Source: a virus. Taken from it: 64,000 nt of DNA. Position 1 is the first letter of the stretch. Each line of letters begins with the position of its first letter. The stretch lies in the IMG/VR virus record IMGVR_UViG_3300025133_000077, positions 1 to 64,000 of that record; one strand, 5' to 3'. The position numbers were made by a program, and so were the translations under genes. The notes under the pieces were generated by a model. It saw only the letters and a program-made list of their open reading frames with translations, did not search any database and was not told where the DNA came from. Shown one piece after another: positions 1,468-16,300 of this stretch.

Positions 1468-4400
1468 CAGGTCCCCTTGCGGGCCCATCCCTGGCGCTTC
1501 TTGTAGCGGATCGGCTTCGGGCGGCCCTGCCGGCGGACGCTCTTCAGCAGCTTGTTGGCGTTGGTGTCCATCTGCTTCGGCAGGATGCCACGGCCCGTCT
1601 TGTCCTTGGCCAGCCCCTTCTTCGGGGCGACCCCGACGAGCCCTCGCTCCGGGATGTAGATCTTGCGGTAGTCCACCGTGACCTCTTCACCCGCCTCCAG
1701 CTCCCGCAGAGCCACCAGGTAGCGGGCCTTGCCCTTCTTCTTGATCTCGGCGTTGGGCTCGTAGCTGTGGTTCGTCTTCCGGCCCTCCGGCGACTGCATC
1801 CCGCGCTCGTCGAAGGCGACGGCGATGGGCTTGCCCTTCTTGACGGGCTCGTCGGTGAAGAAGCCCTTGCCGTGGATCTTGGACGGGTGGACGGCTGCCT
1901 TCTTCTGCAGGGGCAGGTGGTAGCGCAGGAACATCGAGCTCGGCTGGTACTTGTGCAGGAACTCCGACGGCACGTCGGAGGGCCTGAAGTCCTTCCCCAG
2001 CAACGGCTTCCCGTCCTTCGCAGCCCCGCGGTTGTGCTCCTTGCGGATCCTCCTCCGCTCAGCACGACTTCCGAAGCGGATGCCTGGCGTCTTCGCCCAG
2101 ACCGCCTTGCCCTGGTCGTCGGCCTCGGCCCCGACGTGGGTGGCTCCCAGGGACTTGCCGGCCTGCGCGATGCCCTTCATCCCCGCCGCTCCGATGCCAC
2201 GACGACGGAACTCCGGCTTCAGGTACATCGAATCCGCCTCGACGTGCCACTTGCCGCGCAGCAGCTTCTTCTTGAGCGTCAGGTCCGCGGTGCCGTACGA
2301 GAAAGCGTGATCGTCCTCTTGGAAAGGGTTCTTGTCGCCGTCGGTGCGCAGATGGATGGTGGCCTTGGGGCTCATGAACCCCAGCCCTCGGTACGTCTCC
2401 ACCTTGTGGAGCTTGGTGTGCTCGGGCAGGTGCTGCGGAATCGCCTTCTCCAGGTGCTCCCGCAGCACCTTCGGCCGATCCCGCCACCTGGTCTTCGCCA
2501 GCAGCTCGGAAGCCTCCTTCTTCCGCGGGGTCCGAGAAAGCACGAAGCGCTCCTGGGCCGTCAGCGCCTTCTTCCGCCCCTTCGCCACCTTGGCCATCAC
2601 CAAGGCCGTGGAGATGCGCTTCCCGCGCACCGAGCGGTTCCTGAGCGCCTTCTTGAAGTCCTCCACCGAGCAGGCGGAGAGCGAGCCGAAGAACTTGGGG
2701 TTGTCGTAGGCGCGCAGGTACTCCCGCTTCGCCTCCTTCGCCGAGGTGAAGCCGAGCATCACCTTGTCCTCGTCGAAGACCTTGAAGCCGGGCGCCTTCA
2801 TCTGGTGGACGATGTAGACGATGTCGCTCTTCTCGTTCGGGCCCACGTAGACGTCGACGGGGTCGCCGTCGGCGCCGAGGCTCCGCGGCACCTCGCCGTA
2901 GTGGTGCGGCATCACCGTCCGCCACTCCTTGCCCTTGGGGCCCTTGCCCTTGCGCACGGAGCCGCGCTTGTTCTCGATGTTGATCTTGATGCCCTGGAAG
3001 GTGCAGGTGCCCTGGTAGGGGAACTCCTTCCGGTTCCTCTTCGGGGGTGACGTGATCTTGACGGCCGCCGTCTTCGCCTGCCCCGGGGGCTTCGGAGGGG
3101 CGGGCGGCTTCGGCAGCTTGAAGATCTTGCCGCCGGACTCCACCTGCGCTGCTCCCTGCGGAGATCCGAACCGGCGAATCTGCTGCTGCAGGGCGGCCGG
3201 GGCGTGGACCATGCGCTGATCTTGCCCAGCGTCTGCGGCTGCGGTCCTGCCCCGGCGGAGGGCGGACCACGCCCTGTGCATGGGGCTGCCTCGGTACTGC
3301 TCCGTCGGGGCGTTCGAGATGCCTCCCTTCGCGCGGATGAAGCCGAATGCCTGCTTCTGCATCGCGGCCTCGCGAGCATGCCGCTCCCGCCGGGCGCGCA
3401 AGAGGCGGTGCACCCCGTACCCCGCCAGTGCCGTGGCACCGACTGCCGCTCCGCCGATAGCCACCTGTCTGCCTGTCGGCCTCCAGCCGCGCGCTGCGGA
3501 GGGGGGAGCCGAAGTAGGAGTCGGAGCTGGAGTGGGCCGGGAAGCCACCACCTTCTCGGCCACCTGCTTCGCCGCCGGGGCAGCGGCGGGAGCCGGGCGG
3601 GAAGCCACCACCTTCGCAGCTACCTGCTTCGCTGCGGGCGCGGACTTGGCCGCAGCCTCTTGCTTCACCTTCGCTGCAGCAGCGTCCCGCTGCTTCTGGA
3701 AGGCAACGGGACTGACCCCTGCTCGCCGGGCAGGACGCACCACGTCCCGGTGATACCTCTGGTTCTTCAGAGTCTGCTGGTGCCAGTCCAGTTCCTCCGT
3801 CGGCCTACCCGTCCTGACCTTCTCCTGGAGCAGCTCGTGCAGCTTCCTGTGCCGGTGCTCCACCGGGCCCGCTCGATTCTTGAGCAGGTGTCGACTGTGC
3901 CGAAGTTGCGACCTGTCGCCGCCTTCGCGGACCTTCTTCTCGAGGTCCAGGCTGTCCAGGTACTCCAGACGCTTCCACGTCTGCATGTCCTGGCGAGACG
4001 GTTCTCCCGGCCTCCACTTCGGCTCGGCAGGCCGCTTGAGGGTCGAGGGATCCCGCTCTCGCAGGTACCGCGGCTTCCCTGCCATCTTCTCGTGTCCGCC
4101 CAGCACCTGCCGCACCATCATCTGCACGACCGCCCAGAGCTCTGGGCGGTCCATGTCGTCAAGGTGCTGCTTGCCAACTGCCCGTTGACAATCCGCCATG
4201 AAGGCGGGGGAGTTGTCCCATTCCACCCCCAGGTGGTCAGCGATTGCGTGGACCTGCTCCTGGTCGAGCTCCGTGAAGCCGCGGCCCTTGCCCAGGTTCT
4301 GCAGCCACTCCGCGGTGTGCTGGGGCGTGCTGTACCTGCGCTCCTTCCACAGCTGTGGATGAAGGCTGTGGGCAACCCCGTGCCGCTCGAAGAGGGCGAT

Positions 4401-4769
4401 GGTCTGGTCGAGGCCGAACTTGTCGCAGGCCATCTCGAGGTGGATGGTCGGCCGGAAGTCCCGGAGGTACTCCTCGTCGGTGCGGGCGTCGACGACGTGA
4501 CCGAGGTCGTGGTAGCCGGACCAGGCCCGGTCCTCCAGGGAGACCGGGACTCCGCGCCGGCGCATGGCGAGGTAGATGACCTTGTTGACCTCGTCCTGCG
4601 CCGCGTAGCTGGGCATGTCCTCCAGGATGTGGAGGCGGTACCCGTACTTGGCGAGCTCCCCCTCGAGGTTCGAGAGCACGAGCTTCCACGCCCGGCCCTC
4701 CTCCCTCTCGGGAGGACGGTCTACCGCAGCTCCCGTCTTGACGAAGTCGACGAAGTCTTCAGTACGCAT
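1467..4769 (-). CDS. 1100-aa polyvalent protein: zincin-like N-terminus, Ala/Pro/Lys linker, hydrophobic helix, InPase (inorganic pyrophosphatase-like), GNAT acetyltransferase and SET domains
   Basis: HDLGH...E near the N-terminus. InPase: IENKRGSVR...HYGEVPRSLGADGDPVDVYVG...FDEDKVMLGF. GNAT motif A: YLKPEFRRRGIG. SET: SKIHGKGFFT...NHSYEPNA...ALRELEAGEEVTVDY. Confidence 0.8.
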   Translation of the reverse strand: MRTEDFVDFVKTGAAVDRPPEREEGRAWKLVLSNLEGELAKYGYRLHILEDMPSYAAQDEVNKVIYLAMRRRGVPVSLEDRAWSGYHDLGHVVDARTDEEYLRDFRPTIHLEMACDKFGLDQTIALFERHGVAHSLHPQLWKERRYSTPQHTAEWLQNLGKGRGFTELDQEQVHAIADHLGVEWDNSPAFMADCQRAVGKQHLDDMDRPELWAVVQMMVRQVLGGHEKMAGKPRYLRERDPSTLKRPAEPKWRPGEPSRQDMQTWKRLEYLDSLDLEKKVREGGDRSQLRHSRHLLKNRAGPVEHRHRKLHELLQEKVRTGRPTEELDWHQQTLKNQRYHRDVVRPARRAGVSPVAFQKQRDAAAAKVKQEAAAKSAPAAKQVAAKVVASRPAPAAAPAAKQVAEKVVASRPTPAPTPTSAPPSAARGWRPTGRQVAIGGAAVGATALAGYGVHRLLRARRERHAREAAMQKQAFGFIRAKGGISNAPTEQYRGSPMHRAWSALRRGRTAAADAGQDQRMVHAPAALQQQIRRFGSPQGAAQVESGGKIFKLPKPPAPPKPPGQAKTAAVKITSPPKRNRKEFPYQGTCTFQGIKINIENKRGSVRKGKGPKGKEWRTVMPHHYGEVPRSLGADGDPVDVYVGPNEKSDIVYIVHQMKAPGFKVFDEDKVMLGFTSAKEAKREYLRAYDNPKFFGSLSACSVEDFKKALRNRSVRGKRISTALVMAKVAKGRKKALTAQERFVLSRTPRKKEASELLAKTRWRDRPKVLREHLEKAIPQHLPEHTKLHKVETYRGLGFMSPKATIHLRTDGDKNPFQEDDHAFSYGTADLTLKKKLLRGKWHVEADSMYLKPEFRRRGIGAAGMKGIAQAGKSLGATHVGAEADDQGKAVWAKTPGIRFGSRAERRRIRKEHNRGAAKDGKPLLGKDFRPSDVPSEFLHKYQPSSMFLRYHLPLQKKAAVHPSKIHGKGFFTDEPVKKGKPIAVAFDERGMQSPEGRKTNHSYEPNAEIKKKGKARYLVALRELEAGEEVTVDYRKIYIPERGLVGVAPKKGLAKDKTGRGILPKQMDTNANKLLKSVRRQGRPKPIRYKKRQGWARKGT
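3538..3650 (-). repeat. Imperfect 60-bp tandem duplication in the linker of the polyvalent protein
   Basis: Two copies of cgggaagccaccaccttc...cacctgcttcgc 60 nt apart, encoding APAAKQVA(A/E)KVVASRP. Confidence 0.8.
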
Positions 4770-7700
4770 AGGGCTTCTTCTCCGTGCCCTTCCCGAACTG
4801 CGTGCCCAACACCAGCCCGGGGATCGGGTTCGTCCCGTGGATGTTGGTCTTCCAGCCCTGGGCTCCGCCCTCGGTGAGGGTCTTCTTCAGCTCACGGTAG
4901 TTGAGCCGGCCCATCCAGTCCTCGCTGGAGGCCATCGAGACCTCCTGGATGCCCTTGAGCACGGGGTCGTGGTCAGCTCCCTTGCCGCCCTTCTTCCCGA
5001 TCTCCCGGTTCACCTGCTCCAGCTTGGTGGTGGGGACCATGTCCCCTCGCAGGAAGCCGGTGTCCCCGGGCTGCTTGATCATCGAGAGGTTGGTGAGCGA
5101 GCGGACCACGGTCTCCATGTTCCGCTTCTTCACCTTGCCGCCGTAGGCGCCGTGCATCTCGTCGGTGAGGTAGCCCTTGACGCTCTCGATGCCGGCGACT
5201 TCCAGCAGGTGGTGCGGGTTCACGGGGCCGGAGGACAGAGCCTCGCCGAGAGCGACCTCGATCATCAGCGTGCCGCGGAGTGCGCGCATGACCTTGTCGG
5301 AGGGCTTGTTCCTGGCGGGGATGTAGTGGCTCTTCGGCGTGGGGAAGTACTTCCCGTACCGATCCTTGCCGCGGATGTGGACACGCCAGCCGCCGGCGGG
5401 GTCCACCTCGGCCTTCATGATCTGCCCCTTGTACGAGGAGATGGTGGCCTCGCCCGGCAGGGACTTCGTCAGGTGGAGCAGCTGCCCGAGCCGGGTGAAG
5501 GAGTCGGTGCGGCTGGCCTCGGCCTTGCTCACGACACCGCCGGTGTGGAAGGCGTTCATCGAGAGCTGCGTCGCCGGCTCGCCGATGGCCTGGGCCGCCC
5601 AGATGCCCACGTTCTCGCCGAGCGACGGGGAGCTCCCCGCCTCCGTGACGCCGTAGCACATCGCGCACACGCCCTCGGACTCCTCGCACTTCAGCGGGGA
5701 GCGGACGAGGACCTGGGCGACGCCCGAGTTCTTGATCTTGGTCAGCACCTCGGCGGTGAGCAAGGTCTTGCTGGGCACGTCGCCCTTCTTCAGCTTCACG
5801 GGGACCGCGGTGTAGCGGTCGTGGATCTCGGAGTCGGCCACCGACATCAGCACGCCGTTGGTGGTCCCGCAGTCGGGGGAGGTCACCAGCTGGTTGATGT
5901 TGGCGCTGACCAGGTCCTTGGTCAGCTCTCCGGGAGCCTGGGTGCCCTTCACCTTGCCCAGGGTGCCCATGCGAGCGCCGGACAGCGACGCCCAGTACTC
6001 CGCGGCGCTCAGCCCCTCGGAGTAGCTCTTCTTGATGGGGATCGGGACGGCGCTGCCGTTGGGGTCGGTGACCAGCACCGGGGCCAGAGTGAGCTGCTTG
6101 AACTGATCCCAGTTGCCTCGCGCGCCCGACTGCACCATCTCGTACATGCGGTTGCCTGTGCCCTTCATCTTCGCCTTGCCCTCGGCGTCGATCTTGTTCA
6201 GCGCCCCCATGTACGCGTCGACGACGGCCTTGTCGCGGCCCTTGCCCTTCTTCATCGCCTTCGCGGCCTCGCGGTCGGCCTCGGCGAAGTGCTTGTCGCG
6301 GATGTCCGGGCGGGACAGCACGTCCTTCAGGCTGAAGGAGTAGCCCGTGTCGTAGGTGTGCTTGTTGCCCAGCTGGTTCAGCTTGTTGACCGTGATCGAG
6401 AACCTCTGGGGGTGCGCCTTGGCCAACGGAGCCAGCAGGGAGGACACCGCGCCCTTGGTGAGCACCAGCGCCGGGTCCGCCAGGACCTTCTGCCTCTCCT
6501 TGGAGCCCGCGGGGAAGCAGTTGGCCAGCATCAGGCGGCCGACCGTGGTCTTCTGCTGGCCCGCCTCCTTGATCGTCTCGTCGATCTCCGGGGCCCAGTG
6601 CGAGCCTCCTCGCCACCACGCCGCGGTCTTGGTGATCACCGAGGAGCCCACCGTGATCTCCTCGGACGCGGTCACCTTCCCCTTCTTGTACGCCTTGATG
6701 GCGTCGTCGGCGGAGACGAAGGTCTTGCCCGTGCCCTTGCCCCACTTGCTCAGCTGGTAGAGGCCGAGCTGCGCCTCCTGGCTGGGCAGGTTCATCAGCC
6801 GGCCGGAGGAGGCGCTGAACAGGTTGTTCGAGGGCACCATCTTGCGGGCCTCGGCCACAGCCTCCTGGGTCAGTGGAACGTAGATCGCCGTGGTGTCGCC
6901 GTCGAAGTCCGCGTTGAACCCGCCGGTCACCAGGGGGTGGATGCGGATGGCCTTCCCCTTCACCAGCTTCGGGTGGAAGGCCATGATCCCGTGCTTGTGG
7001 AGCACGGGGTCACGCTTCATCAGCACCGGGCGGTCCCGCACGACGGACTCGAGCGCCTTCTTCGCCACCGGATCGTTCTGCTTCACCGCGAGCTGGGCAC
7101 GCAGCGGGGAGTAGCCGAAGACCTGGACCAGCTCCCGCACGACGAAGGGCTTGTACATCTCCATCGCCGCCTTCTGGGGCAGCCCCACCTCGTCCAGTCC
7201 CATCGACTGCTCGGGGATGATCGTGGAGCGCATGGACAGGTCCATGCGGCGGCCGATGATCTTGTTCTGGAAGTAGCCCGACTTCGGCTGCGTCCCCTTC
7301 ACGGTCTCGAGCACGCCGCGGTAGTGCCGGCCCTGGTACTTCTGGCCGTCCATGGTCAGCGCCTTGAGCCCGTCGTACAGCTCGCGGTACAGCGGCACCT
7401 TCTGGTTCTGGGGGAGGCCGGGGTCGAAGTCGCGGAGCTTCTGGTTCGTGAGGGACAGCCCCTTGTAGAGCTGGTTCACGTCGGCCGCCGTGGTGTTGCC
7501 GCTGTCCATCACGGACACGGGGCGGAACTTGGGCGGCATGATCGGGATGTGCTTCCGCATGTACGCGTCGGCGGGGTTGAGCTCGGCCGCCTTCAGCGCC
7601 TGGAGGTAGCGGACACGCCGGCGCAGCCGGCTGAGCTTGTACTTGCGCGCACCCTTCAGGGCGGTCAGCGTCTTCTTCAGCTCTGCGTCCAGGTCCAGGC

Positions 7701-10700
7701 CCCGGAGCGCCTTCTCGATGCCCTCGGCGCCCTTGCCTCCGCCGGGGACCTCCTTCTCGTGCCCCACGATCGCAGCGATGTCCCCCTTCTTGAGGTCCAG
7801 CAGCGACGTGATCGCGTTGTCGAACAGGGGGTTGGGCAGCGCTGTCTCCAGGGTCATGTGCCCCCAGCGCTGCTTGTCCGCGTGCTCCGGGTGCAGGGAG
7901 CCGAAGATCTTCTCGTCGAAGATGCCTCCCTTCTCCGGCTTCATGTCCTTGCCCCGGAACATCCGGCCCGGGTCAGCGACGTGCCCGTTGCTCAGCCCCA
8001 GGACCTGCTTGTCCGTGAGGGGCTTGAGCTGCATCTCGTCGCCCTTCTTCTCCACGTCGAGCCCCATGGTCTTCAGGAACCCCTCGAACTTGTGGTAGGT
8101 GAAGGGGATCTTGGGAGCGGGAAGGGCCTGGCCGGAGTGCAGGGCCGTCCACATGTCGGCGTTGTAGTCCGACTTGTGGGTGTACATCTCCCGGAGGTTG
8201 TGCCGCGCGCCGTGGGCGAGCATGGAGTACAGGCCGAGCGCACTCAGGGACTGGGCGCTGGTGCCACCTCCCTCCTTGGGGGAGCGGTCCAGGTTGTACG
8301 GCGCCGACGTGCCACCGGAGCGGGAGGTCATCTTCTTGGAGACCTTGTGCTTCATCTTGAAGATGTACTGGTTGCCGATCAGCACATCCCCCATCTTCTT
8401 GCCGGTGTCGGGGTCGAAGAGCTCCTCCGTGTCGGACAACCCGTGCTTCTTCAGCTCGGACTGGACCACTCGGCCGTAGTCGGCCTTGCCCTCCTCCTGG
8501 GGGAAGTTGTCGACGTGGTACGCCTTGCCGGACTTCTCCGCGATCTTCCCCGCCAGGGTCTCGAGCACCTGGCCGACGTTGATGCGGGACGGGACGCCGT
8601 GGGGGTTCAGGGCGATGTGGATCTGGTTGCCGTCCTTGGTGACCGGCATCTCCTTGTCGTGCACGATGCGGGAGATGATCCCCTTGTTGCCGTGGCGGCC
8701 GACCAGCTTGTCGCCGACCTGCGCCGGCTCCTCGGTCTTGATGTGGACCTCGATCTGCTTCGCCGTCCGGATGACGCGGACGACCTTGCCCTTGTAGCCC
8801 TTGTCCCAGAGCACCGATCGGTTCGAGTAGTCCTGCACCTTCGAGCGCTTCAGGGCCTGGTAGGCCGCGGCCTCCGAGCCGATCTCCCGCTTCTGCAGCT
8901 TGGCGATGAGGACGTCCCCCTCCTCGACGTCGGAACCGTCCTTGATCACCCCGCGGGGGTCGAGCTTGGCCATCTGCGCCGTCGTCACGGTGCCGGGCGA
9001 GATGTGGGCGAGGAACTTGGCCTTGTCGAACACCGAGTTGCGGTCGATGGTCGTCGACATCCGGTACATGTGCAGGCTGGTGAGCATCGAGGACGCGGAC
9101 TGGGAGATCACCACCCCGTCCTCGAAGTTGTAGCCCTTGAAGGGGACGTAGCCCACGCGGAGGTTCTTGCCGAGGGCGAAGGTCCCGTCCTTCGTGAAGT
9201 TGGTGTCGGCCAGGAGCTGCCCACGCTTCACGCGGTCGCCCACCTTCACCTTCAGGTGGGCGTCGAGGTAGGCCTCGTCCTGGTTGAGGGGGAAGTCCTT
9301 GTAGACCTGGACCTCGTGCTCCTTGCCCGTGCTGTCGCGGATGAACACCGCGTCCTTCACGATCTTCGTCACCACCCCGTTGACCGGCGCCTGGTGGGAG
9401 TTGAAGGAGCCCATCATCTGCTCGAAGGTGTGTCCCTCGCCGGCGTCGGTGGCGCTCTGCACCAGCGGGGCCTCCCGGTGCTTCAACGAGACCACCTGCT
9501 CCTGCATCCGGGACGCCGTCATCGTGCGGTTGCCCTGGTTGTTGTGCAGGAAGGGGATCAGGTTCGTGGGCAGGGAGTACATCCCCTTCGAGGTGAGCAT
9601 CACGTGCGTCACCTCGTTCCAAGGGCGCATCATCACGTCGTTGCCCTTGCCGGCGACGGCGACGTTCTTCGCGTTCTTGGGCAGAGGCATCTCGCCCGCC
9701 CACTTCACCTGGTCGGAGAAGGCCACGACGTACCCCTGGAAGTCGTGCGGAGCCACCTTGTCGATCTTCTTGGTCTTCCGGTTGTACAGGGAGACCCGGA
9801 GCTCTCGGCCCTCCTTCTCCACGCCCAAGGGCAGCTGCAGGGTGATGCCCGTCTTCGCGCCCTCCGGAGTGGTGATGGGGTCCAGGTAGTTCAGGTGCGT
9901 GTTGTTGATCCGCAGTGCCTCCTTCGGCACACGCTGCAGGTCGGACACGGCGCCGGGACCCATGATCGTGGTTCGCATCTGCCCCGACACGAACTCCAGC
10001 GGGTTCGTCTGGTTGGGCATCTGGGCCAGCGACGTGGAGAAGAATGAGCCCATCGGCTTGCCGAAGACCGCGGGGTTGACGATCTGTCTGACCGTGCCCT
10101 TCTTCCCGTCCAGGCCCTGCCGCAGTCGGCGGCCGATCTCAGCGCGGGAGCGGTGCAGTCGGTCGGAGAGGTGGTCCTCGATGGACAGCACGTCCTTGAA
10201 GGCCAGGGACTCGCGGTCGTCCGGGGCAGCCTCACCGCGGGCGAGGCTCAACAGCTTCTTGGAGGAGGTCAGCATGGCCTCCCCGTTCACCGCGGCGAAG
10301 GGCTTGCCGAGCGTGAGCTTGGTGCTGTCCTTCCGCAGCTCCGCCGCGGACAGCGTCTTCCTGACCTCGGCCTGCGCCTCAGCGAGCGTCTCCGCCGACC
10401 CTCCGGTGGTCCTCTTGAGGATCTTGTTCAGGGACTGCAGCTGCTTCTTCTCGTCCCCGTACTTCTTGACCGAGGCGTCGTAGATCTCCCCGCCCCACGC
10501 TTTCTTGATCTTGTCGTCGGGCTCCCCCATCGCCCGGAGCACCGGGTACAGGCCGATGTCCTCCATCGAGCCGAACTTCAAGGTGAAGACGCGCTTCTCG
10601 GGGTGGAAGTAGGACCAGAAGCGGTCCGCCTTCGCGCCCTCCCAGTTGTTGATGTTCCACTGGGTCACCAGGCGCCCCGCCTCGTCCTCCCGGTGGTAGA

Positions 10701-11058
10701 CGCCCGACTTCAGGCGGAACTGGTTGTCGACCTGCCGCTCCTTGCCGTCGACGATGTAGGAGTAGCGTCGGGTGATCTTGGGGATCTTGGCCACGGTGAT
10801 CGTGGACTTGTCGATCACCTCCCCCGTGGTCTTGTCGATCAGGGAGAGACGGGCCTTGACGGGCACTGCCCAGGAGCGCCCGTGCAGCTTCGCCTCCCGC
10901 TGCGAGCGGATGTCGTCGAGGCTCAGGTCGTCGGCGACCCAACACTTCGACATCTCGAGGCGGCGGTTCTGTCCCTCGAAGGGGAAGTGATCGGCGACAG
11001 CCTCCGCGACACGGCTCTTCAGCGTCTCGAAGGCCTCTTCTGGGTCGAGCTGGGCCAT
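4759..11058 (-). CDS. Phage two-barrel DNA-directed RNA polymerase, beta and beta' fused in one polypeptide (about 2099 aa)
   Basis: Beta motifs: QTNPL, TPEG, GKNLRVGY..GYNFEDG, GDKLVGRHGNKG, LNPHGVPSRINVGQ, KMKHKV..KMTSR. Beta' motifs: GGIFDEKIFG, GRRMDLS, RDPVLH, NADFDGD (6895-6915), SGARG, DCGT..RSPLKC..C..CYG, GEPATQL..FHTGG. Start moved to the ATG at 11058 (GAGGA SD). Confidence 0.95.
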   Translation of the reverse strand: MAQLDPEEAFETLKSRVAEAVADHFPFEGQNRRLEMSKCWVADDLSLDDIRSQREAKLHGRSWAVPVKARLSLIDKTTGEVIDKSTITVAKIPKITRRYSYIVDGKERQVDNQFRLKSGVYHREDEAGRLVTQWNINNWEGAKADRFWSYFHPEKRVFTLKFGSMEDIGLYPVLRAMGEPDDKIKKAWGGEIYDASVKKYGDEKKQLQSLNKILKRTTGGSAETLAEAQAEVRKTLSAAELRKDSTKLTLGKPFAAVNGEAMLTSSKKLLSLARGEAAPDDRESLAFKDVLSIEDHLSDRLHRSRAEIGRRLRQGLDGKKGTVRQIVNPAVFGKPMGSFFSTSLAQMPNQTNPLEFVSGQMRTTIMGPGAVSDLQRVPKEALRINNTHLNYLDPITTPEGAKTGITLQLPLGVEKEGRELRVSLYNRKTKKIDKVAPHDFQGYVVAFSDQVKWAGEMPLPKNAKNVAVAGKGNDVMMRPWNEVTHVMLTSKGMYSLPTNLIPFLHNNQGNRTMTASRMQEQVVSLKHREAPLVQSATDAGEGHTFEQMMGSFNSHQAPVNGVVTKIVKDAVFIRDSTGKEHEVQVYKDFPLNQDEAYLDAHLKVKVGDRVKRGQLLADTNFTKDGTFALGKNLRVGYVPFKGYNFEDGVVISQSASSMLTSLHMYRMSTTIDRNSVFDKAKFLAHISPGTVTTAQMAKLDPRGVIKDGSDVEEGDVLIAKLQKREIGSEAAAYQALKRSKVQDYSNRSVLWDKGYKGKVVRVIRTAKQIEVHIKTEEPAQVGDKLVGRHGNKGIISRIVHDKEMPVTKDGNQIHIALNPHGVPSRINVGQVLETLAGKIAEKSGKAYHVDNFPQEEGKADYGRVVQSELKKHGLSDTEELFDPDTGKKMGDVLIGNQYIFKMKHKVSKKMTSRSGGTSAPYNLDRSPKEGGGTSAQSLSALGLYSMLAHGARHNLREMYTHKSDYNADMWTALHSGQALPAPKIPFTYHKFEGFLKTMGLDVEKKGDEMQLKPLTDKQVLGLSNGHVADPGRMFRGKDMKPEKGGIFDEKIFGSLHPEHADKQRWGHMTLETALPNPLFDNAITSLLDLKKGDIAAIVGHEKEVPGGGKGAEGIEKALRGLDLDAELKKTLTALKGARKYKLSRLRRRVRYLQALKAAELNPADAYMRKHIPIMPPKFRPVSVMDSGNTTAADVNQLYKGLSLTNQKLRDFDPGLPQNQKVPLYRELYDGLKALTMDGQKYQGRHYRGVLETVKGTQPKSGYFQNKIIGRRMDLSMRSTIIPEQSMGLDEVGLPQKAAMEMYKPFVVRELVQVFGYSPLRAQLAVKQNDPVAKKALESVVRDRPVLMKRDPVLHKHGIMAFHPKLVKGKAIRIHPLVTGGFNADFDGDTTAIYVPLTQEAVAEARKMVPSNNLFSASSGRLMNLPSQEAQLGLYQLSKWGKGTGKTFVSADDAIKAYKKGKVTASEEITVGSSVITKTAAWWRGGSHWAPEIDETIKEAGQQKTTVGRLMLANCFPAGSKERQKVLADPALVLTKGAVSSLLAPLAKAHPQRFSITVNKLNQLGNKHTYDTGYSFSLKDVLSRPDIRDKHFAEADREAAKAMKKGKGRDKAVVDAYMGALNKIDAEGKAKMKGTGNRMYEMVQSGARGNWDQFKQLTLAPVLVTDPNGSAVPIPIKKSYSEGLSAAEYWASLSGARMGTLGKVKGTQAPGELTKDLVSANINQLVTSPDCGTTNGVLMSVADSEIHDRYTAVPVKLKKGDVPSKTLLTAEVLTKIKNSGVAQVLVRSPLKCEESEGVCAMCYGVTEAGSSPSLGENVGIWAAQAIGEPATQLSMNAFHTGGVVSKAEASRTDSFTRLGQLLHLTKSLPGEATISSYKGQIMKAEVDPAGGWRVHIRGKDRYGKYFPTPKSHYIPARNKPSDKVMRALRGTLMIEVALGEALSSGPVNPHHLLEVAGIESVKGYLTDEMHGAYGGKVKKRNMETVVRSLTNLSMIKQPGDTGFLRGDMVPTTKLEQVNREIGKKGGKGADHDPVLKGIQEVSMASSEDWMGRLNYRELKKTLTEGGAQGWKTNIHGTNPIPGLVLGTQFGKGTEKKPYAY

Positions 11059-11086
11059 AGATCCTCGGGCTGACGGACGTGGGGGC

Positions 11087-11116
11087 AGTGTAAGGGACCC
11101 TTGCAGTACAGCACAA
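11087..11116 (-). promoter_or_regulatory. Sigma70-like promoter upstream of the RNAP unit
   Basis: TTGTGC-N18-TACACT on the minus strand in the divergent intergenic region. Confidence 0.4.
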
Positions 11117-11131
11117 TCACGGAGGATGCCA

Positions 11132-11146
11132 CGGCATAAGCAGAGT
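11132..11146 (+). promoter_or_regulatory. Candidate phage-RNAP promoter motif CGGCATAAGnAnAGT
   Basis: 13 of 15 nt identical to 16372-16386. The TAAG ends 36 nt before the first plus-strand start codon. Confidence 0.5.
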
Positions 11147-11176
11147 AGAGGAACACCCCTCGTAGGAGACAAAGCA

Positions 11177-11308
11177 GTGGCCAACGATCAGCAGAAGAAG
11201 AAGACGCCCCCCAAGGTCGAGAAGCGCTCCAGCGTGCGCCGCTTCTCGAACAACGTGAAGAAGGCGGTGGGCGGTCACCGCCGTCCCGCCCCCAAGAAGA
11301 AGGAGTAG
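11177..11308 (+). CDS. Small, very basic hypothetical protein (43 aa)
   Basis: AGGAG SD before GTG; MANDQQKKKTPPKVEKRSSVRRF...; GC3-rich codons. Confidence 0.55.
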   Translation: MANDQQKKKTPPKVEKRSSVRRFSNNVKKAVGGHRRPAPKKKE

Positions 11309-11312
11309 GACC

Positions 11313-11435: not shown

Positions 11436-11750
11436 ATGGCCTACTGCCCCCTGTTGCCGGGGCACTGCCGGAACGCCACCGACTGTGGCGGGTGCAGCAC
11501 GTTCTCCGACGTGCTGCACCCGTACGCAGACGAGCTGTTCTGGGTCTGTCCCGATTGTCTTACGCCCCGTCGAGAGCCCAGCGGCTTCACCCTCCTGGGC
11601 CACTACCAGGAGATCGACTGCGACATCTGCAGCAAGCTCTCCAACCTGTGCCAAGCGGCTCTGCCTCCCGACGTACTGACGGCAGCCAAGTGGTTCGAGA
11701 TGCTCCAGCGCATCCTGGAGAAGGCGACCGAGGAGAACGAAGATGGATGA
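11436..11750 (+). CDS. Cys-rich (Zn-finger-like) hypothetical protein
   Basis: C..C...CGGC, CPDC and CDIC...C motifs; GAGGAG SD. Confidence 0.7.
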   Translation: MAYCPLLPGHCRNATDCGGCSTFSDVLHPYADELFWVCPDCLTPRREPSGFTLLGHYQEIDCDICSKLSNLCQAALPPDVLTAAKWFEMLQRILEKATEENEDG

Positions 11751-12108
11751 CTGCTGTGCCCAGTGCCAGGAGCAGTTCGAGCTCCGGGAGACCGGCATCC
11801 TTGAGGTCTACGAGGGGGAGGTCGGCTTCAATGACGAGGGGGAGGTCGCCTTCATCCCCGACGACTTCGCCCAGTACATCCACACCAAGTGCGCGTCGCG
11901 GTACTTCAACCCCGGCGAAGAGGCCGAGGTTCGCAGGGAGATCCGCGAGGAGGTGCTCTTGGATGGAGCCGCCCAGGTGAACGCCTACCTGGGTGGCGTG
12001 GAGAAGATGCGGCAGCGCGAAGAGGAAGAAGAGGAAGTCGCCGAGGAGTGGGTTCGCCCGCCCGCTCGGCGACGCTCCTCTCGTGGGGGGAGGTGGGGAG
12101 GACGATGA
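11743..12108 (+). CDS. Hypothetical protein with CxxC...HxxC Zn motif, acidic segment and Arg/Gly tail
   Basis: CAQC...HTKC; coupled to the upstream gene. Confidence 0.7.
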   Translation: MDDCCAQCQEQFELRETGILEVYEGEVGFNDEGEVAFIPDDFAQYIHTKCASRYFNPGEEAEVRREIREEVLLDGAAQVNAYLGGVEKMRQREEEEEEVAEEWVRPPARRRSSRGGRWGGR

Positions 12109-12114
12109 TCCTGG

Positions 12115-12132
12115 CGGGCCCGAAGGGGCCCG
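12115..12132. terminator. GC-rich hairpin between convergent genes
   Basis: CGGGCCC-GAAG-GGGCCCG between the stops at 12108 (+) and 12142 (-); no U-tract. Confidence 0.5.
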
Positions 12133-12141
12133 TCGCTTAGC

Positions 12142-14148
12142 TCACACCAGCGCCCTGCCGGGGTCTCGCCGGGGCGGCTTCTGCGACGGGAGCGGAGACT
12201 GCTGCGCGTCGAGCGGGTCCCGGGTCTCCTTGGAGCCCTGCATGATCTGCAAGACCAGCGAGTAGAAGTGCGGCTGCGTCGACTTCATCTTCTGCATCGC
12301 CGCGTAGGCGTCCGGCGGCTTCGTCTTGAGCAGCTTCCGCAGCTCGTTCGCCGTCCGCTTGGCCACGTAGAAGACGTCCTGACCCGTGCCCGGGTCAGCC
12401 GTCAGCTGAGAGGACGCCTCCTGCGGGACGCCTGTGACCGGAGAGGACTGCCCGTTCTCCGGGTACAGCTTGGCCCCTGCCGGGCCCTCGACGGGGCCGC
12501 TGCCGCCCTCCTGGCCACCCTCCTGGCCAGGGCCGAGCTGCATGGCTCCGCCCCCGCCCACGAGGTCGGACTGGGCCGCCTGCATGTAGAGCTGCATGAC
12601 CTGCTGAGCCTCGCCCTGGCCGACGGCCGCGGAGACCTGGGCCCGTCGCTGGTCCTCGGCCTGCTTCCTCGACTCGGAGCTGAGCAGCAGCCGCTCGGTC
12701 TCGTAGTCCTCGTTGAGTTCGCGCAGGAAGGTGTGGTCGGAGATCTTGTTGGCCTGGTTGGCCTGGAAGTAGATCATCGTGCGCTGCAGGTCGTCCGCCA
12801 TCTTGAAGCGGCGGAACTTCTTGCCCACGCGGGGCCAGCCCAACCACGCGCCGATGGAGTCGAACACCCAGTCCGTGAGGCCCTGGATGTCGGCGCGGTA
12901 GTTGATGAACTCGTTCTCTAGGTTCCGCATGGAGACCTGCGTGCCGGAGTAGCCGAGGCCGCCGAAGATAAACTCCTGCGGGACGTGGAGGCCGGCGACG
13001 ATGTTCTCTGCCCAGACGCGGTACTCCTGGTGGAGCACCATCGCTCGGCCCTGGCCGCCGACCATCTGGTGTCCCACGGGGAGGGGCAGGATCGGGATGT
13101 AGTTGGGGTCCCGCCGCCACCGCTCGATCTCCTCCTCCATCTGGCTCTTCCAGCCGGTGAGGGGCATCGTGGTGTACGGGTCGCTGGTCCCGGAGCCGGG
13201 CTGCGGGAAGATCATGCGCAGCGGCACGATGTGCTCGCGGGCGATGGCTTCCTGGCCCTTCTTGAGGATCTGCAGGTAGTAGGAGTCCTTGAGCACCGGC
13301 AGGATGCGGGACAGACCCCAGCCCTTGTCGTTCCCGTTGCCCGAGATGGACGGGCGCCGCATGTGGAAGAGCTGGCCCGGGGCGAACCGGAGGCCGGTCT
13401 TCTTGCGGGCGGCCTCGACGAAGACGTTGGGGATCTCCTCCTGAAGGTGGTTCCTTCCGATCATCAGCCGCGCCCGCGTGCGGGGGCTCATCTCGTAGTA
13501 GTACCTGCAGTGCCCGGTCTCCTCGTTCACATCGATGGCGATGCGCTCGGGGTCCCACCGGACGAGCCCGATCTTGTACGGGCTCCGCTGCCAGACATCG
13601 AGGGGCTTGGCGTTGCCCACCTTCCTGCACTTGGGGCAGGTGAGGCGGTAGTTCAGCTCCCGCCACTTGTAGTGGGGCCGCAGCTTCTTCGCCGGCGCCT
13701 GGTACTTGCAGTGGTTGCACTGCAGGAACTTCACGAAGGGGTAGTTGATCGAGGTGAAGGAGTTGCCGTAGCACTGGTAGTCCAGGCCGGTCTCCACCTG
13801 GAAGCTGCGGAACTTCAGGATCTGGTCCTTGAGGTACTTGTACTTCCGCGCCACCGCCTCGTGCTTGCTCTCGAACACCAGGTCGGTGATCGGGTACGAG
13901 GCCATCTTGTAGATGACCGCGTTCACCAGCGGGTTGGTGAAGAAGTAGTAGCGGCACCAGCGGAACAGCTTCTTCTGCGACGAGGGCAGGTAGGTGTGCG
14001 CTCCGTCGAAGAAGGGGCTGGGGTACGGCACGCCGGCCCGGCCCGAGGCCCCGAAGAAGCCCGAGCGCAGGTTGGCGAAGCCGCTGCCTCCGGCGGTGCC
14101 GCCGCTCACCCCGTACGTGGGCAGCCCGAAGTCGAATCCCTCAGCCAT
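12142..14148 (-). CDS. Putative portal protein with Zn-ribbon insertion
   Basis: Portal-like pattern: RWCRYYFFTNPLVNAVIYKMASYPI, DYQCYGNSF, LFHMRRP...GWGLSRILPVLK, IVAGLHVPQEFIFGG; Gly/Gln/Pro-rich C-terminal tail. Confidence 0.7.
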   Translation of the reverse strand: MAEGFDFGLPTYGVSGGTAGGSGFANLRSGFFGASGRAGVPYPSPFFDGAHTYLPSSQKKLFRWCRYYFFTNPLVNAVIYKMASYPITDLVFESKHEAVARKYKYLKDQILKFRSFQVETGLDYQCYGNSFTSINYPFVKFLQCNHCKYQAPAKKLRPHYKWRELNYRLTCPKCRKVGNAKPLDVWQRSPYKIGLVRWDPERIAIDVNEETGHCRYYYEMSPRTRARLMIGRNHLQEEIPNVFVEAARKKTGLRFAPGQLFHMRRPSISGNGNDKGWGLSRILPVLKDSYYLQILKKGQEAIAREHIVPLRMIFPQPGSGTSDPYTTMPLTGWKSQMEEEIERWRRDPNYIPILPLPVGHQMVGGQGRAMVLHQEYRVWAENIVAGLHVPQEFIFGGLGYSGTQVSMRNLENEFINYRADIQGLTDWVFDSIGAWLGWPRVGKKFRRFKMADDLQRTMIYFQANQANKISDHTFLRELNEDYETERLLLSSESRKQAEDQRRAQVSAAVGQGEAQQVMQLYMQAAQSDLVGGGGAMQLGPGQEGGQEGGSGPVEGPAGAKLYPENGQSSPVTGVPQEASSQLTADPGTGQDVFYVAKRTANELRKLLKTKPPDAYAAMQKMKSTQPHFYSLVLQIMQGSKETRDPLDAQQSPLPSQKPPRRDPGRALV

Positions 14149-15018
14149 CTACGCCGCCTTGCTCTGGAGGAGCCACGAGAACTCTCGGGCCTGCACAGCT
14201 TCCTGCTGGCGCCGGTGCACCATGTAGTTGTGGGCCACGAGCAGCTTGCCGCAGACGACATCCTCGCGCACATCGTCGCTCAGGTCTGCCCCTTCCCCAC
14301 CGTGCACCTGCCTCCACCGGGCGGCGACCGGGCGGGGGTCGTTCTTGTAGAAGGTCGAGACGTTGCGGCCTACCTCGTCCGGGATGCCCCGCGCCGGCCT
14401 GCCGTTCACCGTCTTCTCGTCCATGTCCGGGTTGAACCGCCCCACGCAGACGTCGCACCGCCCATCCTCGAGGTCGTCGTCGTCCTCGTTGCCGCAGTCC
14501 CCACAGCGGTAGGTGGGCTCGGCCACCACGCGCTGCGCGACGGCGAGGGGGCCCGGCAGGAACCAGACGCCGCGCTCCAGAGCCGAGGCCGCCATGAACC
14601 GGACCACCTCCTCCTGGTACGGCTCCTTGCGGATGTCCGAGACCATGTCGACGGCCGCCATCATCTGGGCAACTGTCGGTTGCTGAAGTGTCATGAAGTC
14701 GGGGGTGTTGTTGTTCAGCGCCTGCACCAGAGGGGCAAACACCGACCACGACGACCAGAAGCCGTTGGCCAGCAGCAGGTTGCGGATCGCCTGGATCTTG
14801 TTCTTGTTCAGCGCGCTGACCGTCACCCTGTGGGGACGGGAGTAGTGCTTCTGGAAGAGCTCCGAGAAGTCCTGCTCGATCTCGTACCAGAGCACATCGG
14901 AGTCCCACTCCAGCCAGTCCGACTTGAACACCGCGAAGAGGAGCCCGGCCAACACCGCCGGGTGCGCGTCGTGGTAGCCGAAGAAGAGGGCCGGCGACTC
15001 AGGCGCTGATGGTTCCAC
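14149..15018 (-). CDS. Hypothetical head-module protein with CxxC...CxxC Zn ribbon
   Basis: GTG at 15018 with GGAG SD; CGDC...CDVC; lies between the KxA-rich protein and the portal. Confidence 0.65.
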   Translation of the reverse strand: MEPSAPESPALFFGYHDAHPAVLAGLLFAVFKSDWLEWDSDVLWYEIEQDFSELFQKHYSRPHRVTVSALNKNKIQAIRNLLLANGFWSSWSVFAPLVQALNNNTPDFMTLQQPTVAQMMAAVDMVSDIRKEPYQEEVVRFMAASALERGVWFLPGPLAVAQRVVAEPTYRCGDCGNEDDDDLEDGRCDVCVGRFNPDMDEKTVNGRPARGIPDEVGRNVSTFYKNDPRPVAARWRQVHGGEGADLSDDVREDVVCGKLLVAHNYMVHRRQQEAVQAREFSWLLQSKAA

Positions 15019-16300
15019 GGGCGTGGCTCCTGCTGGCCGCCAGCCGCGCCACGACCACCTGCTTGGGGTAGGGCAGGGACTTGAAGACGGTGACGGGCTT
15101 CGCCATGAACTGGTCCGCCGCGTCATCGCCGAGCGCATCCCGGACACGGCCGAGGTCGTTGCGGGAGAGCCTCAGCAGGTCCGCCCCCGTCACCTTGTCG
15201 ATCCCCTTCATCCAGTGGTAGCCGGCGTCCTCGGACGCTGTCTTCTCGGAGAGGGCTGCGCGGTACGGGTCGGGCAGGGAGCGGTCCCACTCCTGGCTGA
15301 GCCCGTAGTGCTCGTCGAACTGCGTCAGCGCCTTGCCGAAGGCGTCGGGACCCTGGTGCGTGGCGACCGTGGCCAGCTTCATCAGGATGGCGCCGCCCCG
15401 CTCGTCGACCCGGCCCGCCCTGGCGTTGAGGTGGAGGACGAAGCTCTCGTTGAGCTGCTCGCCCCCGTACTGCGCCACCTTCTCGGTGACCTCGACCTCG
15501 AAGTGGTCGGCGGCGAGCTTGACGTTGCGGCAGTACTCCCGCCGGTCAGCGGGGTGGAAGCGGTCCCCGTACTCGTCGAAGTAGGCCATCGCCTGCTTGA
15601 CCTGCTCTTCGGTGTCAAGCGGGTAGCGGTCGTCGAGGGCCGCCGTCTTCCTCCGGGAGTGTCGATCCAGTGCGGCGTACGCTCCGTAGCCTGCCCCGAT
15701 GCCAAGAAGTGCGCCGCCCGCCCCCTTCGCTGCGCCACCGGCGGTGCGCTTCAGGGTCTCGGTCTTCGTCGCCCCCTGTTGCCGCGCCTTGCGGAAGCCG
15801 GCAGCCGCGCCGACCGTGCCTGCCCCAAGAGGGATGCCGGCCACGATGCCGGCTTCGATGAGGGTGAACGCCTGCTTCTCCCAGGCCCGGATGTCGACGA
15901 CGGCCTCGGCGATGCCGGCCACCTTCATCAGCATGCCGTCGCGGGAGCCGATCTCGGGCACAGCCGAGGCGACCTTGGCGACGAGCCCGGGGACGGTGTA
16001 GCCGCCCTCGTCCATCGTCTCCATCAGCTTGATGCCGGCGACCACGGCGGCCGTCTTCGGCATCTGGTCCCAGGTCCGCTCGAGGTACTGGGCACTGAGC
16101 CACGCCACCTCGGGCGAGGTGCAGGCGAACTTGCGGAGCTTGCCCTCGCTGCTGAGCATGACGACTCCGAAGTCGGAGTCGGGGTAGCGCGACAGCTCAT
16201 CGCGCTCGGGCAGTGACGCGGTCGCCACCTTCTCGGGGAGTGAGACCGACGCTGCCTTGAGCAGCCCCGGTCCCAGATCGTGCGGGTCGACAGCGAGCAT
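14999..16300 (-). CDS. K-x-A-motif-rich protein (putative scaffold or internal head protein)
   Basis: ATG at 16300 with GGAGG SD. About 11 KxA motifs (KAA, KVA, KTA, KQA, KLA) and a central Gly/Ala hydrophobic segment. Confidence 0.65.
   Translation of the reverse strand: MLAVDPHDLGPGLLKAASVSLPEKVATASLPERDELSRYPDSDFGVVMLSSEGKLRKFACTSPEVAWLSAQYLERTWDQMPKTAAVVAGIKLMETMDEGGYTVPGLVAKVASAVPEIGSRDGMLMKVAGIAEAVVDIRAWEKQAFTLIEAGIVAGIPLGAGTVGAAAGFRKARQQGATKTETLKRTAGGAAKGAGGALLGIGAGYGAYAALDRHSRRKTAALDDRYPLDTEEQVKQAMAYFDEYGDRFHPADRREYCRNVKLAADHFEVEVTEKVAQYGGEQLNESFVLHLNARAGRVDERGGAILMKLATVATHQGPDAFGKALTQFDEHYGLSQEWDRSLPDPYRAALSEKTASEDAGYHWMKGIDKVTGADLLRLSRNDLGRVRDALGDDAADQFMAKPVTVFKSLPYPKQVVVARLAASRSHARGTISA

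What the first reader, a model, noticed from the sequence alone, without database searches (positions are those of the whole stretch)
1893..16300. Recurrent K-x-A motif at domain boundaries: candidate head-protease cleavage code
In the 1100-aa protein, EKMA, QKQA, AKTA, KKEA and KKAA each fall just before a new domain (KTAA before InPase, KEA before the GNAT region, KKAA before SET). The 14999-16300 protein has about 11 copies. The 14149 protein ends SKAA, the 27831 peptide has EKTAA and the RNAP carries one KTAA in an insert. Known: T4 gp21 and phiKZ gp175 proteases cut internal head proteins at short motifs, although those end in Glu. Inference: a KxA-specific protease cuts a polyprotein into separate ejected enzymes.
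Basis: inference. Interest (0 to 1): 0.8.

Follow-up and report, generated by a model that had tools for sequence, protein, structure and literature searches.

The report
K-x-A junction code in phage head proteins
In this phage and its relatives, the three-residue motif Lys-x-Ala marks the junctions between protein modules and is concentrated in head-assembly proteins, so it is most likely the cutting signal of an unusual head-maturation protease, though no cleavage has been shown.

Summary
K-x-A is not enriched overall in the 1100-aa InPase/GNAT/SET protein (11 seen, 11.4 expected) or in the fused RNA polymerase (16 vs 16.1). Its position is highly non-random.

- **Module junctions:** across three orthologous polyproteins, 21 of 38 K-x-A lie within 5 residues of a homology-block end, where 8% of positions lie. 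This is the top score among all residue pairs; A-x-K scores 3 of 54. Every large insertion or domain swap is bracketed by K-x-A.
- **RNA polymerase:** two K-x-A flank a 28-residue linker exactly where Salmonella phage Arash splits the enzyme into two genes.
- **The 433-aa protein upstream of portal:** 14 K-x-A against 3.7 expected, and this holds in all relatives.
- **Relatives:** in Arash and in a complete 178-kb relative, the most enriched proteins cluster in the head module, beside a conserved protein with an invariant N-terminal E-K-T-A-A-P. That protein is weakly like T4 gp21-type prohead proteases.

Best reading: a [L/M]-x-K-x-A|small cleavage code. This is a new specificity of a known kind of system. 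The contig is only about 40% of the genome and holds no protease gene. Other notes and withheld reports of this scan cover the same stretch.

The parts
1467..4769 (-). 1100-aa polyvalent protein: zincin-like N-domain, Gly-zipper/TM segment, InPase, GNAT and SET modules
   Evidence: Pfam InPase 2.3e-39, SET 1.7e-6, GNAT 8.5e-5. Orthologues are P0010 (1695 aa) and P0011 (1647 aa), with modules inserted or swapped.
4080..4088 (-). KMA (res 228-230), junction after the N-terminal domain
   Evidence: 7 of 9 homologues have K-x-A, and the other 2 have K-E-S, within about 10 aa after this domain, although the flanks differ. In the L012 orthologue the extra 197 aa at this point follow KEA and end with KTA, if our KMA is matched to KEA (the aligner's own gap starts about 10 aa earlier).
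3348..3356 (-). KQA (res 472-474), junction before the FGFIR..GISNAPTEQ module
   Evidence: L012 has KQA|[149-aa insert]KRA|FGFIR. P0011 has KTA|MKFLRK directly after the N-domain.
3066..3074 (-). KTA (res 566-568), junction before InPase
   Evidence: Lies 8 aa before the inferred start of the InPase domain (the Pfam match itself begins at residue 586, at profile position 11). In L012 the InPase is replaced by a Peptidase_C92 module bracketed KTA|...KTA|. P0011 has KLA|AVKI with a different upstream neighbour.
2646..2654 (-). KKA (res 706-708), end of the InPase module
   Evidence: The Pfam InPase match ends at 709. The homology block with L012 resumes here.
2583..2591 (-). KVA (res 727-729), short linker; the block with P0011 ends 3 aa later
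2511..2519 (-). KEA (res 751-753), junction before the GNAT module (SELLAKTRWRD...)
   Evidence: L012 has KTA|SKLLAKTRWRD and P0011 has KAA|SELLAKTRWRD, with different upstream sequence.
1893..1904 (-). KKAA (res 956-959), junction between GNAT and SET
   Evidence: PLQ-K-x-A ends the GNAT block in all three orthologues. K-x-A|A..PSKIHGKGFF opens the SET block even where the neighbour differs.
4290..4691 (-). Zincin-like domain (res 27-160) with invariant H87-D88-x-x-H91 and E112; secondary protease candidate
   Evidence: AF2 model pLDDT 86.7. Top fold matches are IrrE/PprI, selecase and the Mtb COG2856 protein (Foldseek E 0.02; VIA Z 6.0 and 5.8). Invariant residues come from A2. No Pfam match.
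4759..11184 (-). Fused beta-beta' RNA polymerase (2141-aa frame)
   Evidence: Pfam Rpb2_6, Rpb1_1-5. 31% identical to Arash gp206 plus gp216.
6562..6645 (-). 28-aa RNAP linker (res 1514-1541) holding KTA (6622-6630) and KEA (6562-6570)
   Evidence: The Arash gp206 C-terminus aligns to residue 1513, and the gp216 N-terminus to 1541-1544. L002 has the same doubly flanked insert, L003/L007 have one EKTA, and L004/L006/G005 are seamless.
14999..16300 (-). 433-aa K-x-A-rich head-module protein (N-domain, Gly-zipper middle, DUF6582-like C-domain), two genes upstream of portal
   Evidence: 14 vs 3.7 expected. Homologues score z 4-6. 6 sites are invariant. The P0003 insert is flanked EKLA|...QKSA|. 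It is split into two genes in G005.
12142..14148 (-). Portal protein (context; no conserved junction-type K-x-A)
   Evidence: tblastn to the Arash portal 3e-71. Alignment.

Best explanation
K-x-A, with the extended preference [L/M]-x-K-x-A followed by a small residue, is the recognition motif of the head-maturation protease of a clade of roughly 180-kb phages related to Salmonella phage Arash. This 74.7-kb contig is a fragment of one such phage. Inferred mechanism: proteins assembled into the prohead are cut after the Ala. Cutting would separate the 1100-aa polyvalent protein into about six or seven pieces: zincin-like domain, membrane-active Gly-zipper segment, small module, InPase, GNAT and SET. 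It would nick or excise the 28-residue linker of the fused RNA polymerase, giving two chains equal to Arash gp206 and gp216. It would cut the 433-aa protein at many sites, as T4 gp21 does to scaffold and internal proteins. The most likely enzyme is the conserved head-module protein family represented by Arash gp222. It has invariant His and Ser-Met-Gly motifs and an invariant E-K-T-A-A-P near its own N-terminus. Its gene should lie in the unsampled part of this genome. Shown here: the positional statistics, the conservation and the comparative anatomy. Inferred: cleavage itself, the side of the cut, the identity of the protease, and packaging and ejection of the products.
For: 1. Junction association in three orthologous polyproteins. 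20 of 40 block ends lie within 4 aa of a K-x-A end, against 3.0 at random. 21 of 38 K-x-A lie near a block end, where 8.3% of positions lie. K.A ranks first of all residue pairs at gaps 0-2; A.K scores 3/54 and R.A 2/42.
2. Three insertions and the InPase/Peptidase_C92 swap in L012 are each bracketed by K-x-A. Each module keeps its preceding K-x-A when its upstream neighbour changes.
3. After the N-domain, 7 of 9 homologues have K-x-A and 2 have K-E-S, within otherwise unconserved sequence.
4. The RNAP linker with two K-x-A coincides with the Arash gp206/gp216 gene split.
5. The 433-aa family is enriched 3-5 fold in all relatives. Six of its sites are invariant, and it exists as two separate genes in G005.
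6. In complete genome G005, several of the most enriched ORFs are this family and a cluster of four ORFs right after ORF 41254-44190; two others (the top-scoring ORF at 11370-13385, and 37250-38533) lie elsewhere. In the 68 kb of Arash examined, the top ORFs are gp220 (10 vs 3.0), gp225 (7 vs 1.8) and gp223 (8 vs 3.0), around gp222 and upstream of the MCP. The MCP itself has KEA at 27-29.
7. The gp222 family (alignment A3, 40 sequences at 35-63% identity) has invariant K29 and A31, H119, H120, S180-M181-G182, and an intein inserted right after SMG in several members. The nearest named Atlas clusters are Peptidase_S77 (0.91) and S80 (0.90). hhalign puts its HxxN.D and VS motifs in register with the two motifs of T4 gp21 that, from memory, hold its catalytic His and Ser.
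8. Head-set sites have P5 Leu/Met 41% against about 12% in background, and small P1' 52% against 33%.
9. Precedent: SPN3US gp245 cuts after A-x-E with P4 and P1' preferences (PMC10052503). Processing of polyvalent proteins has been predicted (PMC5512222).
Against: No cleavage has been observed for any of these proteins. No protease gene lies in the contig. The candidate family is not recognised by the Pfam S77, S78 or S80 models or by PDB sequence profiles. The hhalign probability against T4 gp21 is only 0.3%, and no structure of the family could be predicted here. About half of the K-x-A in the 433-aa protein lie inside predicted helices or strands of folded domains, where a protease could reach them only if the protein unfolds. 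Arash virion MS reports 96-100% coverage for gp220, gp221, gp223 and gp224 (PMC10585845). If taken literally, some molecules are uncut at those sites, although that preparation also held many non-structural proteins. Some relatives lack the motif at equivalent junctions (L017 before InPase; L004/L006/G005 at the RNAP junction). There is no proteome-wide excess of N-terminal K-x-A. RNAP depletion is only mild (52 vs 71.3, p about 0.01, non-independent).
Confidence: 0.55

Rival explanations
1. The code is read in cis or trans by the polyprotein's own N-terminal zincin-like domain (IrrE/M78-like fold with HDxxH...E), not by a prohead protease. This would be the autoprocessing predicted for polyvalent proteins.
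For: The confident model (pLDDT 86.7) has sheet, HDxxH helix and Glu helix. IrrE/PprI and other zincins are the top fold matches by two methods. H87, D88, H91 and E112 are invariant. A conserved K-x-A/S follows directly after the domain in all 9 homologues. PMC5512222 predicts zincin-mediated processing.
Against: The catalytic Glu of HExxH is an invariant Asp. Fold scores are middling (Z 6.0), and neither Pfam nor PDB sequence searches match. The domain was not found in the complete relative G005, which still shows K-x-A enrichment and flanked InPase. It does not explain enrichment in the Arash head module, whose sampled 68 kb showed no homologue of the polyprotein.
Confidence: 0.15
2. K-x-A is a junction or targeting signature that is not cleaved, for example a short docking motif for scaffold or capsid incorporation, or a preferred linker element between modules.
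For: The same positional data fit. High MS coverage of K-x-A-rich Arash proteins fits uncut proteins. Many sites sit in folded helices.
Against: A docking motif would not need to sit exactly at both ends of every inserted module, or at a gene-split point. The format (fixed P3 and P1, free P2, flank preferences, multiplicity in scaffold-like proteins beside a protease-like gene) copies known prohead protease motifs.
Confidence: 0.15
3. The Lys of K-x-A is a modification site (methylation or acetylation) for the SET or GNAT modules carried by the polyprotein.
For: SET and GNAT domains are present in the same protein, and the motif is centred on Lys.
Against: It does not explain junction placement or the invariant Ala. 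Enrichment is seen in the Arash and G005 head modules, where the only part of this polyprotein matched was InPase (in G005). Relatives also place SET and GNAT in different proteins.
Confidence: 0.05
4. Chance or composition: Lys/Ala-rich linkers produce K-x-A by accident.
For: There is no overall enrichment in the 1100-aa protein or the RNAP.
Against: The reverse pattern A.K, and R.A, K.G and K.P, are not associated with junctions. Permutation gives 0 of 5000. The sites are conserved across 35-60% identical homologues.
Confidence: 0.03

Closest known systems
T4 gp21 prohead protease system (Peptidase S77; cuts after L/I-x-E)
   Same: A three-residue motif with fixed P3 and P1. Many sites in scaffold/core and internal proteins. 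Sites at propeptide or module boundaries. The protease gene sits in the head module before scaffold and MCP. The protease carries its own sites.
   Different: P1 is Ala and P3 is Lys, not Glu and Leu/Ile. The candidate enzyme is not detected by the S77 model and aligns only weakly. The substrates here include a multi-enzyme polyprotein and possibly the RNAP.
phiKZ gp175 / SPN3US gp245 (Peptidase S80; cut after S/A/G-x-E or A-x-E)
   Same: A large myovirus with a virion-packaged multisubunit RNAP and many ejected head proteins processed at a short motif, with P4 and P1' preferences (PMC10052503).
   Different: A different motif. The S80 model is not detected in four relatives. In SPN3US cleavage mostly removes N-terminal propeptides, whereas here the sites lie between internal modules.
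Polyvalent proteins of phages and conjugative elements (Iyer et al. 2017, PMC5512222)
   Same: One polypeptide combines InPase, GNAT, SET and a zincin-like domain, encoded among virion genes. Proteolytic release of the domains was predicted.
   Different: That work named no cleavage motif. Here a specific junction motif is proposed. The zincin-like domain is a separate family with HDxxH and has no match to Pfam models.
Herpesvirus assemblin (cuts after Ala, before Ser) — from memory, not tested here
   Same: A capsid maturation protease of the same structural superfamily as phage prohead proteases, with Ala at P1 and a small P1' residue.
   Different: No Lys at P3, and a eukaryotic virus.

Membership tests
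Prohead-protease cleavage-motif systems (T4, phiKZ, SPN3US type) | A short motif concentrated in head, scaffold and internal proteins relative to the rest of the proteome | tested here: met
   433-aa family z 4-6. The most enriched ORFs include the G005 head cluster, and the top ORFs of the sampled Arash region are head-module genes. All other window proteins match expectation, apart from a low-complexity 292-aa protein (33633-34511).
Prohead-protease cleavage-motif systems (T4, phiKZ, SPN3US type) | Motif placed at propeptide or module boundaries | tested here: met
   polyproteins; RNAP split point.
Prohead-protease cleavage-motif systems (T4, phiKZ, SPN3US type) | Glu at P1 | tested here: not met
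   The fixed residues are Lys and Ala.
Prohead-protease cleavage-motif systems (T4, phiKZ, SPN3US type) | A dedicated protease gene in the head module | tested here: inconclusive
   None lies in the 74.7-kb contig, which is 40% complete. The candidate family is present in G002, G004, G005 and Arash (gp222).
Prohead-protease cleavage-motif systems (T4, phiKZ, SPN3US type) | Demonstrated cleavage products | not testable with these tools
   The Arash supplement holds only sequences, with no peptide-level MS.
Peptidase S77/S80 (for the gp222-like candidate) | Match to the family profile | tested here: not met
   PF03420 and PF20034 give no hit in relatives. Pfam finds only the intein. hhalign probability is 0.3%.
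Peptidase S77/S80 (for the gp222-like candidate) | Catalytic His then Ser, about 55 residues apart and invariant | tested here: inconclusive
   H119/H120 and S180 are invariant in 40 sequences. They align in register with the His and Ser motifs of T4 gp21, but without statistical support. Atlas feature neighbours are S77 at 0.91 and S80 at 0.90.
Peptidase S77/S80 (for the gp222-like candidate) | Assemblin-like fold | not tested
The Atlas's own model is poor (pLDDT 0.47).
Polyvalent proteins (Iyer et al. 2017) | Several unrelated effector domains in one polypeptide of a phage, encoded among virion genes | tested here: met
   InPase, GNAT and SET. The gene lies between the RNAP and nuclease/tail genes. 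Orthologues shuffle the modules.
Peptidase M78 (ImmA/IrrE), for the N-terminal domain | HExxH motif plus a downstream Glu | tested here: not met
   An invariant HDxxH with E112.
Peptidase M78 (ImmA/IrrE), for the N-terminal domain | Zincin fold similar to IrrE | tested here: inconclusive
   IrrE/PprI is the top hit by Foldseek (E 0.02, prob 0.98) and by VIA (Z 6.0, 92 aligned, rmsd 4.2). These scores are in the range where chance arrangements occur.

The most novel reading that the evidence does not exclude
A previously unrecognised prohead protease family (Arash gp222-like, with hundreds of members in phage contigs mostly of 100-220 kb) has Lys-x-Ala specificity. It acts as a post-translational 'gene splitter': it cuts a fused beta-beta' virion RNA polymerase into the two chains that relatives encode separately, and it dissects a polyvalent protein into individual ejected enzymes. 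Modules could then be inserted, swapped or fused freely as long as each carries its K-x-A.
Probability: 0.35. Interest if true: 0.75.

Novelty: new variant of a known kind. Interest (0 to 1): 0.62.

Why it matters
If the motif is a cleavage site, it allows three things. Mature protein ends could be predicted across a large, mostly uncultured phage clade that has one cultured member, Arash. The predicted but never mapped processing of polyvalent proteins would become a testable residue-level hypothesis. It would also explain how gene fusions (RNAP subunits, effector arrays) can stay functionally equal to split genes. In addition, it would extend the known range of prohead protease specificity from P1 Glu to P1 Ala.

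Tried and rejected
- **Circular genome.** An ORF ran in frame across the contig ends. This was a 1-in-3 coincidence: the relative has a stand-alone 448-aa frame there, and CheckV rates the contig 40% complete.
- **Per-protein enrichment as the test.** Negative for the 1100-aa protein and the RNAP. Replaced by positional tests.
- **The 292-aa protein at 33633-34511.** It scored as enriched, but only because of a KKAAPKKAAAPK low-complexity run.
- **Portal C-terminal trimming site (KQA 495-497).** Not conserved in orthologues.
- **General N-terminal leader ending in K-x-A.** 24 proteins seen against 20.2 expected in G005, so no signal.
- **Fold of the 433-aa family.** Model pLDDT 64, and no PDB match at E<=0.001. 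The PDB profile search was empty.
- **HMM searches.** Pfam and PHROG scans of remaining window and G005 proteins found no protease, terminase or MCP. The S77, S78 and S80 family searches in relatives were empty. The controls for S77 and S80 also rang nowhere, so absence is not shown.
- **PDB profile search with the candidate protease family.** Empty.
- **Arash supplementary file.** It has no peptide-level data.
- **Complex prediction, read laying and the look-up of sequencing runs.** Not used, because they do not bear on proteolysis.
Full report
**What the window is.** The window is the first 64 kb of a 74.7-kb viral contig at 66% GC.
- The minus strand from 16.3 kb down to 1 carries, in order: a 433-aa protein, a protein of about 283 aa, the portal, a fused beta-beta' RNA polymerase, the 1100-aa InPase/GNAT/SET protein, a nuclease and a tail-associated gene.
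- The plus strand from 16.3 to 34.8 kb is a replication module.
- From 35 kb on lie giant Lys-poor tail proteins.
- The portal and RNAP are related to those of Salmonella phage Arash (180.8 kb). In Arash, RNAP beta, beta' and sigma are abundant in virion preparations (PMC10585845).
- I first took the contig to be circular. That was wrong. CheckV rates it 40% complete, a relative with terminal repeats is 178.6 kb, and the end gene is a stand-alone frame in a close relative.
- The contig is collinear with about 90-178 kb plus 1-10 kb of that complete relative, G005. So the head module (MCP, scaffold, protease) and the terminase are simply not sampled.

**The observation.**
- By composition-matched shuffling, the 1100-aa protein has 11 K-x-A against 11.4 expected, and the RNAP has 16 against 16.1.
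- Only the 433-aa protein is enriched: 14 against 3.7, with no shuffle reaching 14.
- In that protein K.A is the top well-populated residue pair at any spacing from 0 to 3. The same holds in homologues that are 37-69% identical and in the syntenic gene of every related contig, while their other genes match expectation.
- Six of the 14 sites are invariant across six homologues.

**Position rather than frequency.** The orthologue in the closest relative (L012, 1695 aa) differs from ours by three large insertions and one domain replacement.
- Each difference begins right after a K-x-A and ends with one:
  - KEA|[197 aa]KTA|GKPRYL, against our KMA|GKPRYL;
  - KQA|[149 aa]KRA|FGFIR, against KQA|FGFIR;
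  - KTA|[Peptidase_C92]KTA|, against KTA|[InPase]KKA|;
  - a duplicated K-x-A-A..S.IHGKGFF around a 143-aa insert before SET.
- A third orthologue (P0011, 1647 aa) arranges the modules differently. Even so, the FGFIR, InPase, GNAT and SET blocks each keep a K-x-A immediately in front of them, whatever lies upstream.
- Among the three proteins, 20 of 40 BLAST block ends lie within 4 residues of a K-x-A end. Random placement gives 3.0 +/- 1.9, and 0 of 5000 permutations reach 20.
- Against a composition explanation, K.A is first of all residue pairs at gaps 0-2. 55% of its occurrences are near a block end, where 8.3% of positions lie. A.K, R.A and K.G score 5-6%.
- After the conserved N-terminal domain, 7 of 9 homologues have K-x-A and 2 have K-E-S, in otherwise unconserved sequence. 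This includes two proteins where the domain sits near the C-terminus.
- The same rule holds in the 433-aa family. The P0003 insertion reads EKLA|...QKSA|FTL where ours reads EKQA|FTL. In G005 the N- and C-domains are separate genes.

**The RNA polymerase.**
- Residues 1514-1541 are a 28-residue linker holding KTA and KEA.
- The Arash gp206 C-terminus aligns to our residue 1513. The gp216 N-terminus aligns to 1541-1544, so cutting after A1541 would reproduce the Arash gp216 N-terminus.
- L002 has the same doubly flanked insert, and L003/L007 have a 7-residue linker with EKTA.
- L004, L006 and G005 are seamless. The cut is therefore not universal, and this is a permissive surface site.

**Where the motif concentrates in relatives.**
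- In the complete G005 genome, several of the most enriched ORFs are the split 433-aa family upstream of portal and a run of four ORFs at 44-47 kb. That run lies directly after ORF 41254-44190. The single top-scoring ORF (11370-13385) and a third-ranked one (37250-38533) lie elsewhere.
- In the 68 kb of Arash examined, the top ORFs are gp220 (10 vs 3.0), gp225 (7 vs 1.8) and gp223 (8 vs 3.0). They surround gp222 and lie just upstream of the major capsid protein gp226, which itself has KEA at 27-29.
- Sites in this head/polyprotein set show extra preferences: P5 Leu/Met 41%, P4 Glu/Val, and P1' Ala/Ser/Gly 52% against 33% in background.
- The format matches known motifs. Fixed P3 and P1, free P2 and flank preferences are what is described for SPN3US gp245 (A-x-E, P4 Val, P1' Ser; PMC10052503).

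**Candidate proteases.**
- *The head-module family.* G005 ORF 41254-44190, Arash gp222 and homologues in G002 and G004 form a large family with 634 hits, mostly on contigs of 100-220 kb.
  - Across 40 members at 35-63% identity, K29 and A31 (consensus FEKTAAP) are invariant. So are H119, H120, N122, K123 and S180-M181-G182.
  - Several members carry an intein inserted right after SMG, and many are fused C-terminally to InPase.
  - Atlas feature neighbours with a name are Peptidase_S77 (0.91) and S80 (0.90).
  - hhalign against T4 gp21 aligns the His and Ser motifs in register, but at negligible probability.
  - Pfam S77, S78 and S80 models and PDB profiles find nothing.
  - I rate this a probable but unproven prohead protease.
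- *The polyprotein's own N-terminal domain.* It gives a confident model with a zincin-like layout and invariant HDxxH...E. IrrE/PprI is the top match by two methods, but at middling scores.
  - This fits the processing of polyvalent proteins by zincins predicted in PMC5512222.
  - However, the catalytic Glu is replaced by Asp, and the domain is not found in the complete G005.

**Caveats.**
- Nothing here shows a cut.
- Half of the sites in the 433-aa protein lie in predicted secondary structure.
- Arash MS coverage of 96-100% for several K-x-A-rich proteins implies that some molecules are uncut in that sample, which was not pure.
- Some relatives lack the motif at equivalent junctions.
- There is no general N-terminal leader signal and no conserved portal site.

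**Verdict.** The protease-code interpretation is the best-supported reading, at about 0.55, plus about 0.15 for cleavage by the zincin-like domain instead. It would be a new specificity within a known kind of system. It is directly testable in the cultured relative Arash.

Noticed in passing
L027:3254-6190 (G005 41254-44190): The candidate prohead protease gene of the complete relative carries a LAGLIDADG intein inserted right after the invariant Ser-Met-Gly motif. Other family members (P0137, P0140, P0151, P0212, P0236) also carry Hint/LAGLIDADG domains.
   Followed up: partly
proteins P0162-P0254: Many members of the gp222-like family are fused at the C-terminus to an InPase domain (PF18823). 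This is the same domain that sits in the window's polyvalent protein.
   Followed up: no
window 4759-11184 (-): Beta and beta' are fused in one 2141-aa frame. Arash encodes the same enzyme as gp206 (beta plus the N-terminal part of beta') and gp216. K-x-A is mildly depleted in five RNAP orthologues (52 vs 71.3 expected).
   Followed up: partly
window 3340-3480, 15650-15870 (-): Gly-zipper, TM-like segments (GxxxG runs) occur in the polyprotein (about res 430-455), in the middle of the 433-aa protein, and in inserted modules of L012 and L018. They may be membrane-active pieces released on ejection.
   Followed up: no
window 33633-34511 (+): A 292-aa protein with a KPAAKPKRAARKKAAPKKAAAPK low-complexity, histone-H1-like basic tract. 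This tract explains its apparent K-x-A excess.
   Followed up: partly
window 3620-3660 (-), res 371-379 of the 1100-aa protein: An AAAKSAPAA stretch resembles, from memory, the histone H3 K27 region, in a protein that carries a SET domain. The closest relative reads AAKPAPA, so this is probably coincidence.
   Followed up: no
P0011 res ~800-960; L012:5920-6620: Orthologous polyproteins carry extra peptidase-type modules: an HEVGH zincin motif in P0011 and a Peptidase_C92/NlpC-P60 module in L012, which replaces InPase.
   Followed up: partly
window 26622-27209 (+): An HNH endonuclease with an AP2 domain lies directly after the family A DNA polymerase gene. It is a likely homing endonuclease.
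   Followed up: no
window 1-1120 and genome 71932-74702: The two contig ends are in frame by coincidence. The contig is a fragment of a genome of about 180 kb, not a circle.
   Followed up: yes
window 4074-4260 (-), res 160-225 of the 1100-aa protein: A three-helix domain of about 55 aa, found in more than 100 unrelated phage proteins. Its structure resembles the Red-beta and Sak C-terminal domains.
   Followed up: no
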